Of a DNA stretch of 64,000 nt, positions 3,094 through 43,828 are shown piece after piece. A program made the translations under genes and the position numbers. Each line of letters begins with the position of its first letter. Position 1 is the stretch's first letter. This DNA comes from Escherichia phage HP3.2. The notes beneath the pieces were generated by a model, which searched no databases, was not told where the DNA came from, and saw only the letters and a program-made list of their open reading frames with translations. The stretch is from sequence record OP978391.1; one strand, given 5' to 3'.

Positions 3094-3148
3094 GTTTTTC
3101 CTCCATAGAGATTATACTCTAATAAATTAAAGCATAATCTCTTATAAA

Positions 3149-7253: not shown

Positions 7254-7317
7254 TTAATATCCTCTTTGTTTTGGTTTATTTTACCAAAAATTTATAAAGC
7301 AATATAGGAGCCGAAGC

Positions 7318-27921: not shown

Positions 27922-28503
27922 CTAACCGAGCTTTTTAGTTAATTCATTCCAATGTTTTCTACACAAAGAAACATAAATTTCATCACCAATACAGATTTGA
28001 TTACCTTCTTTAACTGGTGTTCCATCTTCCATTAATCGAGCTGTCATAATAGCTTTTTTACCACAATGACAAACTGCCTTTAGTTCAATAAGTTTATCTG
28101 CAATCGCCAAAAGTTCTTTAGAACCTTCAAATAATTTTCCAGCGAAATCAGTCCTTAGCCCATAAGCCATAACAGGAACATTATATGTATCAACAATTCG
28201 ACTTAATTGATGCACCTGTTCAGTTTTTAAAAACTGAGCTTCATCTACAAATACACAATGAATATCTTTTTGTGCTTCAGCCCATTTATAGAACTCAAAA
28301 ATATCCATATCATCCGTAATAATATTCGCTTCCTGCTTAATTCCAATGCGAGAAACGACTTCACAGACAGAATCGCGAGTATCAATAGCAGGCTTAAGAA
28401 CTAATACACCCATTCCGCGTTCTTTATAATTATGTGCAGCAGTCAAAAGAGAAGCAGATTTTCCAGCATTCATTGCTGCGTAAGTAAAAATTAAACTCGC
28501 CAT
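27922..28503 (-). CDS. tk: Thymidine kinase
   Basis: 193-aa ORF with P-loop AAMNAGKS; matches T4 Tk from memory. Confidence 0.9.
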   Translation of the reverse strand: MASLIFTYAAMNAGKSASLLTAAHNYKERGMGVLVLKPAIDTRDSVCEVVSRIGIKQEANIITDDMDIFEFYKWAEAQKDIHCVFVDEAQFLKTEQVHQLSRIVDTYNVPVMAYGLRTDFAGKLFEGSKELLAIADKLIELKAVCHCGKKAIMTARLMEDGTPVKEGNQICIGDEIYVSLCRKHWNELTKKLG

Positions 28504-28512
28504 ATCACCTTC

Positions 28513-28698
28513 TTAAAGCATATTCACATAAGCTATTAATTCGTTTTCTTTCTTATCAAACCGATCAGCAAATTCTTCTTGCTGTTCGGGAGATAGCGGG
28601 CCGTATTCATCATAAAAGGTGTTTGCTTCTGTATGCTCATCTAGAAGTTCATGGATAAGCTCAAACAATTTATCTTTTTGTTCTTTACTCAGACTCAT
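28513..28698 (-). CDS. Hypothetical acidic protein
   Basis: 61-aa ORF. Confidence 0.4.
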   Translation of the reverse strand: MSLSKEQKDKLFELIHELLDEHTEANTFYDEYGPLSPEQQEEFADRFDKKENELIAYVNML

Positions 28699-28868
28699 AT
28701 ATTAATTTCCAGGAGTTTTAAAATAATTCGCTTTTGCTTAAATATTTCCATAGTTAAATGACCAGTATCTTTTTGACCGATTCCAATGGCAAAACCTTTA
28801 TTGACAGCGAGTTCAATTAAATTATCAAGCTCACGTAACACTTCATACTGTAACTCAAAACTATTCAT
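28696..28868 (-). CDS. Hypothetical small protein
   Basis: 57-codon ORF MNSFELQYEVLRELDNLIELAVNKG... read by hand; ATGA overlaps on both sides. Confidence 0.35.
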
Positions 28869-29077
28869 TTCGGTTTACCTTCTTTAACGAAATCTGGATA
28901 AGGATAAAATCCCGAATAAAATCCTTCACCTTTATGATTGATGCATCCTTTATTAGAACAATAGCACCAATAATCGAAATCACAAGCCATTTCATCGTTG
29001 CATAAAGCAAAAACAACTGGCCATTTACACTTTTCACAATGGGCATTTTTAAGAATACTAGTTTGGCTCATAACCAT
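28865..29077 (-). CDS. Cysteine-rich small protein (probable zinc binding)
   Basis: 70-aa ORF with CEKCKW...CNDEMACDFDYWCYCSNKGCINH. Confidence 0.45.
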   Translation of the reverse strand: MVMSQTSILKNAHCEKCKWPVVFALCNDEMACDFDYWCYCSNKGCINHKGEGFYSGFYPYPDFVKEGKPK

Positions 29078-29295
29078 GTAACCTTTAAGCAGTATTCTTC
29101 TACATGCTGTTTACGACCTTTCTTATCAATAAAGGTATATTCAACGAATGTTCCAATGTAGTCTTTATCTACATCATGCGGACTATTAATTGGACATTTA
29201 GTACGGCAAATGCGTTCCCATTGACGAATAATTACTGCCTTATTCTTTGGGTCATATGGATGTGGATAATGTATATTCATAATAACGGTTCCCAA
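29068..29295 (-). CDS. Hypothetical protein
   Basis: 75-aa ORF. Confidence 0.4.
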   Translation of the reverse strand: MGTVIMNIHYPHPYDPKNKAVIIRQWERICRTKCPINSPHDVDKDYIGTFVEYTFIDKKGRKQHVEEYCLKVTWL

Positions 29296-29744
29296 TCAAC
29301 AATCACAATTTCTAATTTAGAGGAATATGTATCTAAAATCCCCTCAATAATATCCCAGTTCCCTTTACCTATGCCTGCACCAATCCTAGGCATATAGATT
29401 GTAGGTTTAATCAGTTTATTTTCACCAAACTCATTTAATTCTAACATACAATTCATTAAAGCGGAATACTCAAAATTTGGCCCTGGTTGAAATTGAGTAT
29501 AAAGGTTGAAGCAATACGCTTTATGAGTCCTAAAGTATTTTTCATAGACTGAGTAAGAACCGAGTTTAGTTACATCACCCCATTCAGTCTGTAATTTATC
29601 AGCTTCCAAAATTTTAGGGAAAGCTTTGGTTAATTGACCCGCTACGCCTGAACCCATAGTATGAAAACAATTGCATCCATGCGCAATATTTTTACCTTCA
29701 GCGAAAAGGGCGACAATATCGCCCTTGATATATTTTACAATCAT
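29277..29744 (-). CDS. Macro-domain-like protein
   Basis: 155-aa ORF; KGDIVALFAEGKNIAHGCNCFHTMGSGVAGQL and PRIGAGIGKGNW resemble macro-domain phosphate-binding loops. Confidence 0.45.
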   Translation of the reverse strand: MIVKYIKGDIVALFAEGKNIAHGCNCFHTMGSGVAGQLTKAFPKILEADKLQTEWGDVTKLGSYSVYEKYFRTHKAYCFNLYTQFQPGPNFEYSALMNCMLELNEFGENKLIKPTIYMPRIGAGIGKGNWDIIEGILDTYSSKLEIVIVDWEPLL

Positions 29745-30082
29745 CTAGTACTCAATCCTCGATTATAAGAATCTACCAAACGGTCAACCATTGAATGACA
29801 AGCGGCTTTATCTTTCTCCTCCGCAACTGAACATTCTAAGGTATTCCACTTTTTAGCATATCGTTTTAATAATGTATCGTTTTTGTATCTGCTTGATTTA
29901 TCTCTTTCTCCGTCTTTATATGCATATATTAATTTCTGCGCAAATTCAGCTTGGCATGCTTTATTTTTCCCACAATAATCCGCGGCAGTACGGTTTACAT
30001 ACTCTCTAATTTCAGTATATGATGTATCTGCTAACGCAGAAAATGAAATTAATCCTATACATAAAACCAAAATTTTAGTCAT
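29741..30082 (-). CDS. vs: Secreted small protein, positional equivalent of T4 vs
   Basis: 113-aa ORF with signal peptide MTKILVLCIGLISFSALA; named by position between tk and regB. Confidence 0.5.
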   Translation of the reverse strand: MTKILVLCIGLISFSALADTSYTEIREYVNRTAADYCGKNKACQAEFAQKLIYAYKDGERDKSSRYKNDTLLKRYAKKWNTLECSVAEEKDKAACHSMVDRLVDSYNRGLSTR

Positions 30083-31109: not shown

Positions 31110-31146
31110 TAGAAAAATTATACCACAGTCAAGAGGAAAAGTAAAC
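31110..31146 (-). promoter_or_regulatory. T4-type early promoter upstream of regB
   Basis: Minus strand reads GTTTAC, spacer, then GTGGTATAAT. Confidence 0.5.
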
Positions 31147-39664: not shown

Positions 39665-39740
39665 CACTTATAATTGGTCGAGGCAGTAGGGATCGAACCT
39701 ACGACCTAGGACTTAGAAGGTCCTTGCTCTTCCTTCTGAG
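39665..39740 (-). tRNA. tRNA-Arg (anticodon UCU)
   Basis: 76-nt cloverleaf folded by hand: acceptor CGGGGCA/TGCCTCG, anticodon loop CUUCUAA, T-loop GGTTCGATCC, encoded CCA. Confidence 0.8.
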
Positions 39741-39744
39741 CTAT

Positions 39745-39820
39745 GCCCCGTAATTGGGGTGACCGATGGGAGTCGAACCCATGACTACGAGAATCACAAT
39801 CTCGAGTTCTACCAACTGAA
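39745..39820 (-). tRNA. tRNA-His (anticodon GUG)
   Basis: 76 nt: acceptor GTGGCCG/CGGTCAC, discriminator C, anticodon loop UUGUGAU, T-loop GGTTCGACTCC, encoded CCA. Confidence 0.7.
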
Positions 39821-39944
39821 CTACGGCCACATTAATACCTACTCCAACAATCAAGATGTCTTCACACGAAATTAAGAGAAGAGTGATCAGTTCAACCCCT
39901 ATAATCGCGTCAAGTAGATATTAATGTGACAGTTGTCACAAATT

Positions 39945-40019
39945 TGGCGGACGTGATAGGATTCGAACCTATAACCAATCGCTTAACAGGCGATCGCTCT
40001 GCCATTGAGCTACACATCC
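39945..40019 (-). tRNA. tRNA-Asn (anticodon GUU)
   Basis: 75 nt: acceptor GGATGTG/CACGTCC, anticodon stem ATCGC/GCGAT, loop CUGUUAA, T-loop GGTTCGAATCC, encoded CCA. Confidence 0.7.
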
Positions 40020-40023
40020 AAAT

Positions 40024-40110
40024 TGGTGGGGAGTGGTGGAGTCGAACCACCCGAGTCGCAATGACAATGAATTTACAGTCCACACCGCTACCTCTACGGG
40101 ATAACTCCCC
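40024..40110 (-). tRNA. tRNA-Tyr (anticodon GUA), long variable arm
   Basis: 87 nt: acceptor GGGGAGT/ACTCCCC, anticodon loop CUGUAAA, variable arm resembling E. coli tRNA-Tyr, T-arm GGTGGTTCGACTCCACC, encoded CCA. Confidence 0.65.
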
Positions 40111-40119
40111 AAATTAATT

Positions 40120-40194
40120 TGGTGGCCCTGGGTGGAATTGAACCACCATCTGGCGATTATGAGTCGCTTGCTTGAACCTTCCAGCTACAGGGCC
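40120..40194 (-). tRNA. tRNA with CAU anticodon (Ile2-lysidine type or Met)
   Basis: 75 nt: acceptor GGCCCTG/CAGGGCC, anticodon loop CUCAUAA, T-loop GGTTCAATTCC; sits where T4 has tRNA-Ile. Confidence 0.7.
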
Positions 40195-40195
40195 T

Positions 40196-40271
40196 TGGTG
40201 CTGATTGACGGAATCGAACCGCCGACCTTCTCATTACAAGTGAGTTGCTCTACCTACTGAGCTAAATCAGC
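40196..40271 (-). tRNA. tRNA-Thr (anticodon UGU)
   Basis: 76 nt: acceptor GCTGATT/AATCAGC, anticodon loop CUUGUAA, encoded CCA. Confidence 0.8.
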
Positions 40272-40276
40272 AAAAC

Positions 40277-40366
40277 TGGCGGAGGCGATAGGATTTGAAC
40301 CTATGAGTCGCCGGAGCGACTGCCGGTTTTCAAGACCGGTGCATTAAACCACTCTGCCACGCCTCC
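40277..40366 (-). tRNA. tRNA-Ser (anticodon UGA), long variable arm
   Basis: 90 nt; sequence GGAGGCGTGGCAGAGTGGTTTAATGCACCGGTCTTGAAAACCGG... matches T4 tRNA-Ser from memory. Confidence 0.85.
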
Positions 40367-40368
40367 AG

Positions 40369-40442
40369 TCTCCGTGGCAGGATTTGAACCTACGACATTC
40401 TGCTCCCAAAGCAGACGCTCTACCAAACTGAGCTACACGGAG
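40369..40442 (-). tRNA. tRNA-Pro (anticodon UGG), CCA not encoded
   Basis: 74 nt: acceptor CTCCGTG/CACGGAG, anticodon loop UUUGGGA; ends 2 nt before tRNA-Ser with no CCA (Pro-Ser dimeric precursor layout). Confidence 0.8.
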
Positions 40443-40452
40443 TAAATTAAAT

Positions 40453-40526
<74 letters not shown>

Positions 40527-40531
40527 AAATT

Positions 40532-40618
40532 TGGTGCGAGAAGTGGGACTCGAACCCACAAGGAAATCATTCCGCAGCATTTTAAGTGCTGTGCCTTTAC
40601 CAATTTGGCCATTCTCGC
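40532..40618 (-). tRNA. tRNA-Leu (anticodon UAA), long variable arm
   Basis: 87 nt GCGAGAATGGCCAAATTGGTAAAGGCACAGCACTTAAAATGCTGCGG...; matches T4 tRNA-Leu from memory. Confidence 0.85.
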
Positions 40619-40619
40619 G

Positions 40620-40692
40620 CTGGGAATAAAGGACTCGAACCTTTGCATCCTGGAATCAAAATCCAGTGCCTTACCAACTTGGCTAATTCCCA
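40620..40692 (-). tRNA. tRNA-Gln (anticodon UUG), CCA not encoded
   Basis: 73 nt: acceptor TGGGAAT/ATTCCCA, anticodon loop UUUUGAU; abuts tRNA-Leu with a 1-nt spacer (Gln-Leu dimer layout). Confidence 0.8.
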
Positions 40693-40789
40693 ATTATTAA
40701 CAAAGGCTCTTAAGCAAGAACCCTTGATGATAGAGGGTATTAATCAGTGCGATATGAGTTAATAATAACAAATAATTCTTAAAGCATAT

Positions 40790-43794: not shown

Positions 43795-43828
43795 TAAGAT
43801 TATAACACATGAAACTGAAGCATTAAAC
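43795..43828 (-). promoter_or_regulatory. Candidate MotA-dependent middle promoter for gene 1
   Basis: Minus strand reads TAATGCTTCA (MotA box), 11 nt, then TGTTATAAT. Confidence 0.5.

What the first reader, a model, noticed from the sequence alone, without database searches (positions are those of the whole stretch)
29277..29744. Macro-domain-like protein in the tk-vs interval
The 155-aa protein has motifs typical of macro domains (KGDIV...NIAHGCNCFHTMGSGVAGQL and PRIGAGIGKGNW), which bind or hydrolyse ADP-ribose derivatives. In a phage this could reverse host ADP-ribosylation-based defence or process NAD-derived signals. T4 itself ADP-ribosylates host proteins through Alt/ModA/ModB, so an ADP-ribose processing enzyme fits.
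Basis: inference. Interest (0 to 1): 0.45.

Follow-up and report, generated by a model that had tools for sequence, protein, structure and literature searches.

The report
T4 tk.4 (adfM) macrodomain gene
This is the known phage T4 gene tk.4, recently renamed adfM: a small ADP-ribose-removing (macrodomain) enzyme that a 2025 preprint showed protects T4 from the bacterial DarTG2 defence, so the finding is correct but not new.

Summary
The ORF is real: window 29277-29744, minus strand, 155 aa, between vs and tk.3 of a Tequatrovirus whose DNA is 100% identical to phage HP3 here. The protein is 155/155 identical to T4 Tk.4 (NP_049723), annotated as an "A1pp phosphatase motif" protein in the T4 record and by 2006 in the literature.

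The macrodomain call holds. Pfam Macro scores above its gathering cut-off. The AlphaFold model has pLDDT 95.3. The best structural matches are TARG1, Poa1p, BT1257 and the DarG macrodomains.

The function is already published. A November 2025 preprint (HIDEN-SEQ) found tk.4 to be the only T4 gene needed on a DarTG2 host. A clean knock-out sensitised T4, and the gene was renamed adfM.

One point I did not find stated in the papers read. The catalytic lysine of DarG (K80) and TARG1 (K84) is an invariant glutamine (Q84) in the Tk.4 family. The same is true of Streptomyces SCO6735, a stand-alone macrodomain shown to remove DarT's ADP-ribose from thymidine, where Q85 is essential. PhiKZ "AdfM" is instead a lysine-type, DarG-like protein, so the two AdfMs are different lineages.

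Most likely mechanism: lysine-independent hydrolysis of ADP-ribosyl-thymidine on phage ssDNA. The biochemistry for T4 is untested.

Verdict: already known; low interest.

The parts
29277..29744 (-). tk.4 / adfM coding sequence, 155 aa stand-alone macrodomain
   Evidence: ORF. 100% identical to T4 Tk.4 NP_049723. Pfam Macro above gathering cut-off. AF2 pLDDT 95.3. Foldseek top hits are TARG1, Poa1p, BT1257 and DarG.
29667..29681 (-). Codons H22-G23-C24-N25-C26, the active-site loop. They correspond to SCO6735 H24-V25-C26-N27, to DarG N22 and to PhiKZ AdfM N23.
   Evidence: Profile-guided and MAFFT alignments. G23, N25 and C26 are 67/67 conserved and H22 is 63/67.
29637..29654 (-). Codons G31-S-G-V-A-G36, the first glycine-rich ADP-ribose/phosphate-binding loop
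   Evidence: G33 and A35 invariant. Aligns with the MG(A/K)G(I/V)A loop of TARG1 and DarG.
29493..29495 (-). Codon Q84: glutamine at the position of the catalytic lysine of TARG1 (K84) and DarG (K80), equivalent to SCO6735 Q85
   Evidence: Alignments. Q84 is 67/67 invariant. SCO6735 Q85A/E is inactive and DarG K80A is inactive.
29355..29390 (-). Codons P119-RIGAGIGKGN-W130, the second glycine-rich diphosphate-binding loop
   Evidence: P119, I121, G122 and G124 invariant; W130 66/67. Aligns with TARG1 PRIGCGLDRLQW, but has G126 where TARG1 has the catalytic D125.
29751..29760 (-). Purine-rich Shine-Dalgarno-like stretch GAGGATTGAG upstream of the ATG, inside the end of vs
   Evidence: Sequence. 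A ribosome_binding_site is annotated at this place in the original T4 record X04567.1 (H16).
29741..30082 (-). vs (valyl-tRNA synthetase modifier), upstream neighbour. Its TGA overlaps the tk.4 ATG (ATGA), suggesting co-transcription and coupled translation.
29068..29280 (-). tk.3, downstream neighbour (70 aa, 100% identical to T4 Tk.3). Its ATG overlaps the tk.4 TGA.
31117..31145 (-). Nearest strong sigma-70-like promoter match on the coding strand (TTTACT-17-TATAAT with TG), upstream of regB. It is a candidate early promoter for the regB-vs.1-vs-tk.4 run. Context only, not shown to be used.
   Evidence: Consensus scan, where the total number of promoter-like matches was no more than in shuffled sequence. 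No MotA-box-like match lies between 26551 and 39543.

Best explanation
The ORF is the T4 gene tk.4, now called adfM (anti-DarT factor, macrodomain). It encodes a 155-aa protein that is a single macrodomain of the ALC1/TARG1/DarG class.

Proposed working, step by step:
1. The gene is transcribed with its neighbours (regB, vs.1, vs, tk.3) on the minus strand and translated by coupling to vs. This is inferred from the ATGA overlaps.
2. In hosts carrying the DarTG2 toxin-antitoxin defence, infection frees the DarT2 toxin. DarT2 ADP-ribosylates thymidine in TNTC motifs of single-stranded DNA and blocks phage replication. This is established for DarT2.
3. Tk.4 binds the ADP-ribose through its two glycine-rich loops and cleaves the ribose-thymine bond, restoring replicable DNA. 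This step is inferred for T4. It has been shown in vitro for SCO6735, DarG, TARG1 and PhiKZ AdfM.
4. Tk.4 has an invariant glutamine (Q84) where DarG and TARG1 have the catalytic lysine, and glycine where TARG1 has D125. The chemistry is therefore most likely the lysine-independent, water-mediated mechanism proposed for SCO6735, where the equivalent Q85 is essential. It is unlikely to be the lysine mechanism of DarG/TARG1 (nucleophilic attack proposed, lysyl-ADP-ribose/Schiff-base intermediate).

The genetic requirement for tk.4 on a DarTG2 host is shown, in a preprint. The enzymology of Tk.4 itself is not.
For: Identity:
- 155/155 identical to T4 Tk.4, with the same neighbours as in T4 and HP3.

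Fold:
- Pfam Macro above cut-off.
- AF2 pLDDT 95.3, pTM 0.91.
- Foldseek hits TARG1, Poa1p, BT1257 and DarG at 1e-10 to 1e-7.
- Profile against PDB: BT1257 4.8e-18, TARG1 7.7e-15, SCO6735 8e-14, Mtb DarG 1.6e-13.

Function:
- In the HIDEN-SEQ preprint, tk.4 is the only significant hit on DarTG2, and a clean knock-out sensitises T4.
- An independent paper had shown that T4 lacking adfA and adfN stays fully resistant to DarTG2, and predicted a further factor.

Mechanism:
- Q84 aligns with SCO6735 Q85, TARG1 K84 and DarG K80. H22 and N25 align with SCO6735 H24 and N27.
- Q84 and N25 are invariant in 67 family members down to 34% identity.
- SCO6735, a stand-alone Gln-type macrodomain, removes DarT-made thymidine-ADPr in vitro and in cells, and Q85A/E is dead.
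Against: - No biochemical assay of T4 Tk.4 was found in the searchable library. The preprint itself says only that enzymatic removal 'seems likely'.
- The functional evidence is one non-peer-reviewed preprint.
- The residue equivalences rest on sequence and profile alignments. I could not superpose coordinates.
- MAFFT alone misplaced BT1257 around the Gln. The profile alignments corrected this.
- Tk.4 has a loop after Q84 that is 5-6 residues shorter than in SCO6735/BT1257, so the SCO6735 mechanism may not transfer in detail.
- SCO6735 also inhibits DarT by binding, so hydrolysis need not be the only route.
Confidence: 0.75

Rival explanations
1. Tk.4 is a metabolic ADP-ribose-1''-phosphate phosphatase (Poa1p-like) or O-acetyl-ADP-ribose deacetylase acting on small molecules. 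This is the historical annotation ('phosphatase', 'A1pp motif', 'Poa1p-like').
For: - T4 and HP3 records call it a phosphatase with an A1pp motif, and CDD A1pp matches were reported in 2006.
- Poa1p is among the best sequence and structure matches (2.8e-6; 8.6e-10).
- The loop H22-G-C-N25-C resembles Poa1p H23-S-C-N26-C (alignment), and Poa1p H23A and S30A mutants were deposited.
- JGI names homologues 'O-acetyl-ADP-ribose deacetylase'.
Against: - These names are domain-transfer annotations, not assays.
- The only phenotype on record is DarTG2-specific.
- The same H/N loop and the Gln are shared with SCO6735, which is a DNA-ADPr hydrolase.
- No source of Appr-1''-p is known in T4 infection (my own knowledge).
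Confidence: 0.08
2. Tk.4 protects mainly by binding rather than by hydrolysis. It would sequester DarT2 (interaction-inhibition) or ADP-ribosylated DNA.
For: - Catalytically dead SCO6735 Q85A inhibits DarT in vitro, more strongly than the DarG and TARG1 mutants.
- Full-length DarG K80A also inhibits DarT.
- Tk.4 lacks the catalytic lysine.
Against: - The isolated DarG macrodomain K80A does not inhibit DarT.
- Tk.4 has no extra domain: it is 155 aa, and the NCBIfam DarG model matches only positions 2-146 of 338.
- Invariance of Q84, N25 and H22 across distant phages with different hosts fits a conserved active site better than a toxin-specific interface.
Confidence: 0.08
3. The main or an additional role is reversal of ADP-ribosylation on proteins or RNA. 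Sources could be T4's own Alt/ModA/ModB or other host ADP-ribosyltransferase defences.
For: - SCO6735 and TARG1 also act on Glu/Asp-linked protein ADP-ribose.
- The family is in 2750 phage records across many genera and hosts, wider than one would expect for a single defence system.
- The AdfN paper notes an RNA ADP-ribosylating defence system and speculates about further phage erasers.
Against: - tk.4 was dispensable on plain E. coli K-12 and scored only with DarTG2 among the systems screened.
- Alt/ModA/ModB make arginine-linked ADP-ribose, which the ALC1-like class is not known to cleave (general knowledge; MavL is a noted arginine-specific exception, title).
- No direct data.
Confidence: 0.07
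4. Tk.4 degrades NAD-derived immune signals (for example Thoeris gcADPR or His-ADPR).
For: Macrodomains bind such signals in Thoeris II ThsA.
Against: - No evidence of any kind for this family.
- The closest characterised relatives are glycohydrolases of macromolecular ADP-ribose.
- tk.4 is not reported among the anti-defence hits listed for other systems in the screen.
Confidence: 0.02

Closest known systems
T4 Tk.4 = AdfM (NP_049723; ORF 60.5 of X04567; bioRxiv 10.1101/2025.11.20.689424)
   Same: Identical protein (155/155). Same position between vs and tk.3. 462/468 identical DNA.
   Different: Nothing in the protein. The surrounding tk-tk.3 interval is mosaic relative to T4.
Streptomyces coelicolor SCO6735 (PDB 5E3B) and Bacteroides BT1257 (2FG1/2AFC): stand-alone Gln-type ALC1-like macrodomains
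   Same: - Stand-alone single macrodomain.
- Gln at the catalytic-lysine position (Q84 vs Q85).
- H-x-C-N loop (H22/N25 vs H24/N27).
- BT1257 is the best sequence and profile match in PDB (1.3e-9; 4.8e-18).
- SCO6735 reverses DarT thymidine ADP-ribosylation.
   Different: - Only about 21-27% identity.
- Tk.4 lacks 5-6 residues in the loop after the Gln and lacks K34 and K89 equivalents (S32; no aligned Lys).
- Cellular versus phage origin.
- Tk.4 activity is untested.
DarG antitoxin macrodomain (T. aquaticus 5M31/5M3E, M. tuberculosis 5M3I)
   Same: Same fold and class (Foldseek 6.6e-8 to 3e-7, TM about 0.77). Conserved Asn (N25 vs N22). Same biological opponent, DarT2.
   Different: - Catalytic K80 is replaced by Q84.
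- No C-terminal DarT-binding domain.
- NCBIfam DarG equivalog score is 30.3 against a cut-off of 250.
- Not encoded next to a darT gene.
PhiKZ gp104 'AdfM' (Cell Rep 2026, PMC13309987)
   Same: Phage-encoded stand-alone macrodomain given the same name, and shown to remove DarT2 ADP-ribose from DNA.
   Different: A different lineage. PhiKZ gp104 is DarG-like (E=9.4e-25 to Mtb DarG) with the FPTK lysine. It matches Tk.4 only at E=0.005 over 23 residues.
Human TARG1/OARD1 (4J5R etc.)
   Same: Best Foldseek hit (3.6e-10). Same KGD...H and PRIGxG motifs. TARG1 also removes thymidine-linked ADP-ribose (title and abstract).
   Different: The K84/D125 dyad is absent in Tk.4, which has Q84 and G126.
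Yeast Poa1p (6LFQ-6LFU), ADP-ribose-1''-phosphate phosphatase
   Same: Similar HxCNC loop and overall fold. Source of the 'phosphatase' annotation.
   Different: Poa1p has no Gln at the Q84 position in the pairwise alignment (Ser/Ser). It has a long insertion (180-residue chain). It acts on a small-molecule substrate.

Membership tests
Macro domain (Pfam PF01661) | Profile HMM score at or above the curated gathering cut-off | tested here: met
   27.7 bits against a cut-off of 22, E=2.9e-6, covering profile positions 2-113 of 118.
Macro domain (Pfam PF01661) | Three-layer alpha/beta/alpha macrodomain fold | tested here: met
   AF2 pLDDT 95.3. All 50 Foldseek matches listed are macrodomains or designs built on them; 151 matches reach E<=1e-3.
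Macro domain (Pfam PF01661) | Conserved glycine-rich ADP-ribose/diphosphate-binding loops | tested here: met
   G31-x-G33-x-A35 and P119-x-I-G-x-G124 are invariant or nearly so in 67 homologues and align with the TARG1 and DarG loops.
ALC1-like (TARG1/DarG/SCO6735) macrodomain class | Closest structural and profile relatives belong to this class rather than to MacroD, PARG or macroH2A types | tested here: met
   The top 20 Foldseek hits are TARG1, Poa1p, BT1257 and DarG; MacroD-type viral domains are 3-4 orders of magnitude weaker. The profile search gives the same order.
Gln-type stand-alone DNA-ADPr hydrolases (SCO6735-like) | Glutamine at the position of the TARG1 K84 / DarG K80 catalytic lysine | tested here: met
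   Q84 aligns with SCO6735 Q85 and the BT1257 Gln. It is 67/67 invariant.
Gln-type stand-alone DNA-ADPr hydrolases (SCO6735-like) | His and Asn of the H-V-C-N loop (SCO6735 H24, N27) | tested here: met
   H22 (63/67) and N25 (67/67) align with H24 and N27.
Gln-type stand-alone DNA-ADPr hydrolases (SCO6735-like) | Additional structural element (mobile loop) and the basic residues K34 and K89 said to give high activity on DNA | tested here: inconclusive
   Tk.4 has S32 at the K34 position and a loop after Q84 that is 5-6 residues shorter. Whether this is the paper's 'mobile loop' could not be checked without coordinates.
Gln-type stand-alone DNA-ADPr hydrolases (SCO6735-like) | Hydrolysis of thymidine-linked ADP-ribose on ssDNA | not testable with these tools
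   Only genetics for T4. Biochemistry exists for SCO6735 and PhiKZ AdfM.
DarG antitoxin (NCBIfam NF048014 equivalog) | Whole-protein score at or above the curated cut-off, with macro plus C-terminal DarT-binding domain architecture | tested here: not met
   30.3 bits against a cut-off of 250. Only model positions 2-146 of 338 are matched, and the protein is 155 aa.
DarG antitoxin (NCBIfam NF048014 equivalog) | Catalytic lysine (K80 in TaqDarG) | tested here: not met
   Replaced by Q84. K80A abolishes DarG activity.
DarG antitoxin (NCBIfam NF048014 equivalog) | Encoded in an operon with a darT toxin gene | tested here: not met
   The neighbours are vs and tk.3. Homologues labelled as bacterial MAG proteins sit on T4-like phage contigs with no darT-like Pfam family among the neighbouring genes.
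T4 AdfM (tk.4) orthologue | Sequence identity and conserved position | tested here: met
   155/155 identical, same flanking genes.
T4 AdfM (tk.4) orthologue | Required for growth on a DarTG2 host | not testable with these tools
   Reported for T4 itself in a preprint. Not tested for this phage (HP3-like), but the protein is identical.
Poa1p-like ADP-ribose-1''-phosphate phosphatase | Residues mutated in the deposited Poa1p structures (H23, S30) and phosphatase activity | tested here: inconclusive
   H22 aligns with H23. T29 (44/67 Thr) aligns with S30. The activity is not testable here, and the Poa1p structure paper was not found in the library.

The most novel reading that the evidence does not exclude
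T4-type AdfM is a separate, lysine-independent (Gln-type, SCO6735/BT1257-like) lineage of DNA ADP-ribosyl-thymidine hydrolase. Phages would have recruited it independently of the DarG-like, lysine-type AdfM of PhiKZ. Because Gln-type relatives such as SCO6735 also cleave protein-linked ADP-ribose, it may be a broad-spectrum eraser that counters more ADP-ribosyltransferase defences than DarTG2. That would explain its presence in about 5% of all phage records across many host genera.
Probability: 0.3. Interest if true: 0.4.

Novelty: already known. Interest (0 to 1): 0.15.

Why it matters
For the scan, this is a correct call on a gene that is already characterised. The macro/A1pp domain of T4 tk.4 has been annotated for about two decades, and its role against DarTG2 was reported in 2025. 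Its value is as a positive control: the first-stage reader recognised a macrodomain from raw sequence and guessed the right kind of biology.

One point may be worth passing on to specialists. Two proteins both called 'AdfM' (T4 Tk.4 and PhiKZ gp104) have different active sites: Gln-type like SCO6735, and Lys-type like DarG. Mutational and inhibitor work on one should therefore not be transferred to the other. For T4, the catalytic-dead control to try is Q84A (or N25A), not a lysine mutant.

Tried and rejected
1. I looked for a T4 middle (MotA-box) promoter near the gene. The pattern is enriched in the window (20 matches against 4.65 expected), but there is none between 26551 and 39543. The sigma-70 scan found no more matches than in shuffled sequence. 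Expression timing therefore remains an inference.

2. A terminator-like palindrome lies inside the 5' end of the gene (29706-29726). Folded as mRNA, the region is not unusual (z=-1.34). It was dropped as a feature.

3. I looked for bacterial homologues in toxin-antitoxin context, to see whether the family derives from a DarG-like operon. The two proteins checked from bacterial MAG assemblies (P0072, P0118; both named as MAG proteins) are on T4-like phage contigs carrying Rnl1, PNKP and dCMP deaminase. No cellular context was obtained.

4. MAFFT alone misaligned BT1257 around the catalytic position. hmmalign misaligned PhiKZ gp104 and ALC1. I relied on the concordant profile alignment for BT1257 and SCO6735, and on MAFFT for PhiKZ.

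5. I searched for a Poa1p mechanism paper to weigh the phosphatase rival. Nothing useful is in the library.

6. I checked the Thoeris/macrodomain preprint for a signal-degrading phage macrodomain. It concerns host ThsA only.

Full report
**Observation**

It runs from 29277 to 29744 on the minus strand, starts with ATG, is 155 aa long and has the quoted sequence and motifs.
- Its ATG overlaps the TGA of the upstream gene vs (ATGA).
- Its TGA overlaps the ATG of the downstream gene tk.3.
- A purine-rich GAGGATTGAG precedes the start.

The 2.8 kb around it is 100% identical to Escherichia phage HP3 and very close to hundreds of Tequatrovirus genomes. The flanking genes are tk (27922-28503) and vs (29741-30082), so 'tk-vs interval' is right.

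**Identity**

The protein is 155/155 identical to T4 Tk.4, NP_049723. The T4 record describes it as 'phosphatase; contains A1pp phosphatase motif'. The gene differs from T4's at 6 of 468 nucleotides, all synonymous. It was first deposited as ORF 60.5 in X04567. A 2006 comparative paper already noted A1pp (macro) domain matches for tk.4 orthologues. Other phage records call it 'macro domain protein', 'Poa1p-like family protein' or 'phosphatase'.

**Is it a macrodomain?**

Yes, by every test available.
- Pfam Macro scores 27.7 bits against a gathering cut-off of 22.
- PHROG 335 matches at 1.3e-65.
- A sequence search of PDB finds BT1257 (1.3e-9), Poa1p (2.8e-6), SCO6735, the DarG macrodomains and TARG1.
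- With a 67-sequence alignment (A1), AlphaFold gives pLDDT 95.3 and pTM 0.91.
- Foldseek against PDB returns TARG1 (3.6e-10), Poa1p (8.6e-10), BT1257 (2.3e-9), Taq DarG (6.6e-8) and Mtb DarG (3e-7). MacroD-type viral macrodomains are much weaker.
- The family profile gives the same set: BT1257 4.8e-18, TARG1 7.7e-15, Poa1p 3e-14, SCO6735 8e-14, Mtb DarG 1.6e-13.

So it belongs to the ALC1-like (TARG1/DarG/SCO6735) class.

**What it does: published evidence**

A bioRxiv preprint of November 2025 (10.1101/2025.11.20.689424) screened a T4 transposon library on defence-carrying hosts.
- tk.4 was the single significant hit on a DarTG2 host.
- A clean deletion sensitised T4 to DarTG2.
- The authors renamed the gene adfM (anti-DarT factor, macrodomain).
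- They propose, without biochemistry, that it removes ADP-ribose from DNA.

This fits an earlier peer-reviewed observation. T4 lacking both adfA and adfN (gene 30.3, a NADAR enzyme that reverses DarT1's guanosine modification) is still fully resistant to DarTG2, so a further factor was predicted. Only eight papers in the library contain 'tk.4' at all, and none reports an assay of the protein.

**Active site**

Alignments were made with MAFFT and by fitting sequences to the family profile.
- The catalytic lysine of TARG1 (K84, 'ITKK'), of DarG (K80, 'FPTKK') and of PhiKZ gp104 ('FPTKD') corresponds to Q84 of Tk.4 ('LYTQF'). Q84 is invariant in all 67 family members, down to 34% identity.
- TARG1's second catalytic residue, D125, corresponds to G126.
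- The same glutamine is found in Streptomyces SCO6735 (Q85) and Bacteroides BT1257.
- The Tk.4 loop H22-G-C-N25 matches SCO6735 H24-V25-C-N27.

This matters for three reasons.
- DarG K80A is inactive.
- SCO6735 is a stand-alone macrodomain without the lysine. It removes DarT-made thymidine ADP-ribose in vitro and in cells more efficiently than DarG or TARG1.
- SCO6735 loses all activity in Q85A/E. A water-mediated mechanism, in which the Gln positions the substrate, has been proposed for it.

Tk.4 therefore looks like a Gln-type enzyme, not a DarG-type one. Consistent with that, the NCBIfam DarG equivalog model scores only 30.3 bits against a cut-off of 250 and covers only its macro part.

**Two different 'AdfM' proteins**

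A 2026 Cell Reports paper independently named PhiKZ gp104 'AdfM'. It showed that the protein removes DarT2 modifications from DNA and that an N23A mutant is impaired.
- That protein is a close DarG relative (E=9.4e-25 to Mtb DarG) and carries the lysine.
- It matches Tk.4 only at E=0.005 over 23 residues.
- Tk.4 matches SCO6735 at 1e-9.

The shared name therefore covers two lineages with different catalytic residues. The Asn (Tk.4 N25, PhiKZ N23, DarG N22) is common to both.

**Distribution and origin**

tblastn finds a homologue in 2750 of 50,697 phage records. These are mostly T4-like phages of many hosts, but also include Felixounavirus-like, rV5-like, Pseudomonas, Ackermannviridae-like and Bacillus phages. 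Two homologues from bacterial MAG assemblies (P0072, P0118) turn out to lie on T4-like phage contigs. The family retrieved here is thus essentially phage-borne, and I obtained no cellular toxin-antitoxin context.

**Mechanism, with status of each step**

1. Co-transcription with regB, vs.1, vs and tk.3, and translational coupling. Inferred from the overlapping stop and start codons. The promoter scan is not informative.
2. DarT2 ADP-ribosylates thymidine in ssDNA. Established for DarT2.
3. Tk.4 is needed to resist DarTG2. Shown genetically, in a preprint.
4. Tk.4 hydrolyses the ADP-ribosyl-thymidine bond. Inferred from homology and from SCO6735 and PhiKZ biochemistry.
5. The chemistry is lysine-independent and depends on Q84. 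Inferred from alignment and from SCO6735 mutants.

Overall confidence in this chain is about 0.75. Confidence in the macrodomain identity is effectively 1.

**Rivals**

- The historical 'Appr-1''-p phosphatase' reading rests on domain naming only.
- Protection by binding DarT2 is possible, because dead SCO6735 inhibits DarT. It is less likely for a bare 155-aa macrodomain whose active-site residues are invariant across hosts.
- A role in reversing protein or RNA ADP-ribosylation is open as an additional function.
- Degradation of NAD-derived signals has no support.

**Verdict**

The feature is already known: it is T4 tk.4 / adfM. The only added value is the Gln-type active-site assignment and the distinction from PhiKZ AdfM. 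These are modest and need an enzyme assay.

Noticed in passing
window 28513-29077 (minus strand): The interval between tk and tk.3 is mosaic relative to T4. T4 tk.1 has no counterpart. The tk.2 homologue (28513-28698) is only 54% identical. Two ORFs have no T4 counterpart in the tk-vs interval compared (T4 tk to vs): 28695-28868 (57 aa, PHROG 3452) and 28865-29077 (70 aa, Cys-rich and zinc-finger-like, PHROG 2306). The flanking tk, tk.3 and tk.4 are 99-100% identical to T4.
   Followed up: partly
window 39675-40692 (minus strand): There is a cluster of 11 tRNA genes: Arg, His, Asn, Tyr, Met, Thr, Ser, Pro, Gly, Leu, Gln. From memory, T4 has 8 tRNAs, so this phage appears to carry extra ones (His, Asn, Tyr, Met). 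Not compared further.
   Followed up: no
locus L002 (NC_041919.1, phage HP3): The RefSeq taxonomy line for HP3 reads 'Caudoviricetes; Rosemountvirus'. Its sequence here is 100% identical to the window and has T4 gene order and 99-100% T4 protein identity. This looks like a mis-assigned taxonomy in the record.
   Followed up: no
window 29741-30082 (vs): Vs is 113 aa here against 115 aa in T4. Two residues are deleted in the N-terminal signal-like segment (T4 'SASASADT', window 'SALADT'). The HIDEN-SEQ preprint reports vs as the most depleted T4 gene in minimal medium.
   Followed up: no
window, whole; e.g. 2480-2504, 3109-3134, 7278-7301, 40762-40786, 43797-43822 (minus strand): MotA-box-like middle-promoter patterns (TGCTTNA, 11-13 nt, TANNNT) are about 4-fold enriched: 20 matches against 4.65 expected, with 0 of 100 shuffles reaching 20. 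Most are on the minus strand. None lies between 26551 and 39543, the block that contains tk.4.
   Followed up: partly
window 29706-29726: An 8-bp GC-rich palindrome (AAGGGCGA...TCGCCCTT) lies 18-38 nt into the tk.4 coding sequence and was flagged as terminator-like on the antisense strand. As mRNA it forms a hairpin, but the region's folding energy is not unusual (z=-1.34). A 2026 preprint reports that the host sRNA ArcZ contacts the tk.4 transcript of T2 without changing protein level.
   Followed up: partly
loci L003 and L004 (GCA_051648945.1, GCA_051660865.1): Contigs binned into bacterial MAGs (Bacilli and Culicoidibacterales in the protein names) that carry Tk.4 homologues also encode T4-type Rnl1, PNKP, dCMP deaminase, spanin and a Dda-like helicase. 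They are T4-like phage contigs mis-binned as bacterial.
   Followed up: partly
literature: The name AdfM has been given independently to two non-orthologous phage macrodomains: T4 Tk.4 (Gln-type) and PhiKZ gp104 (DarG-like, Lys-type). This is a nomenclature collision that could mislead annotation transfer.
   Followed up: yes
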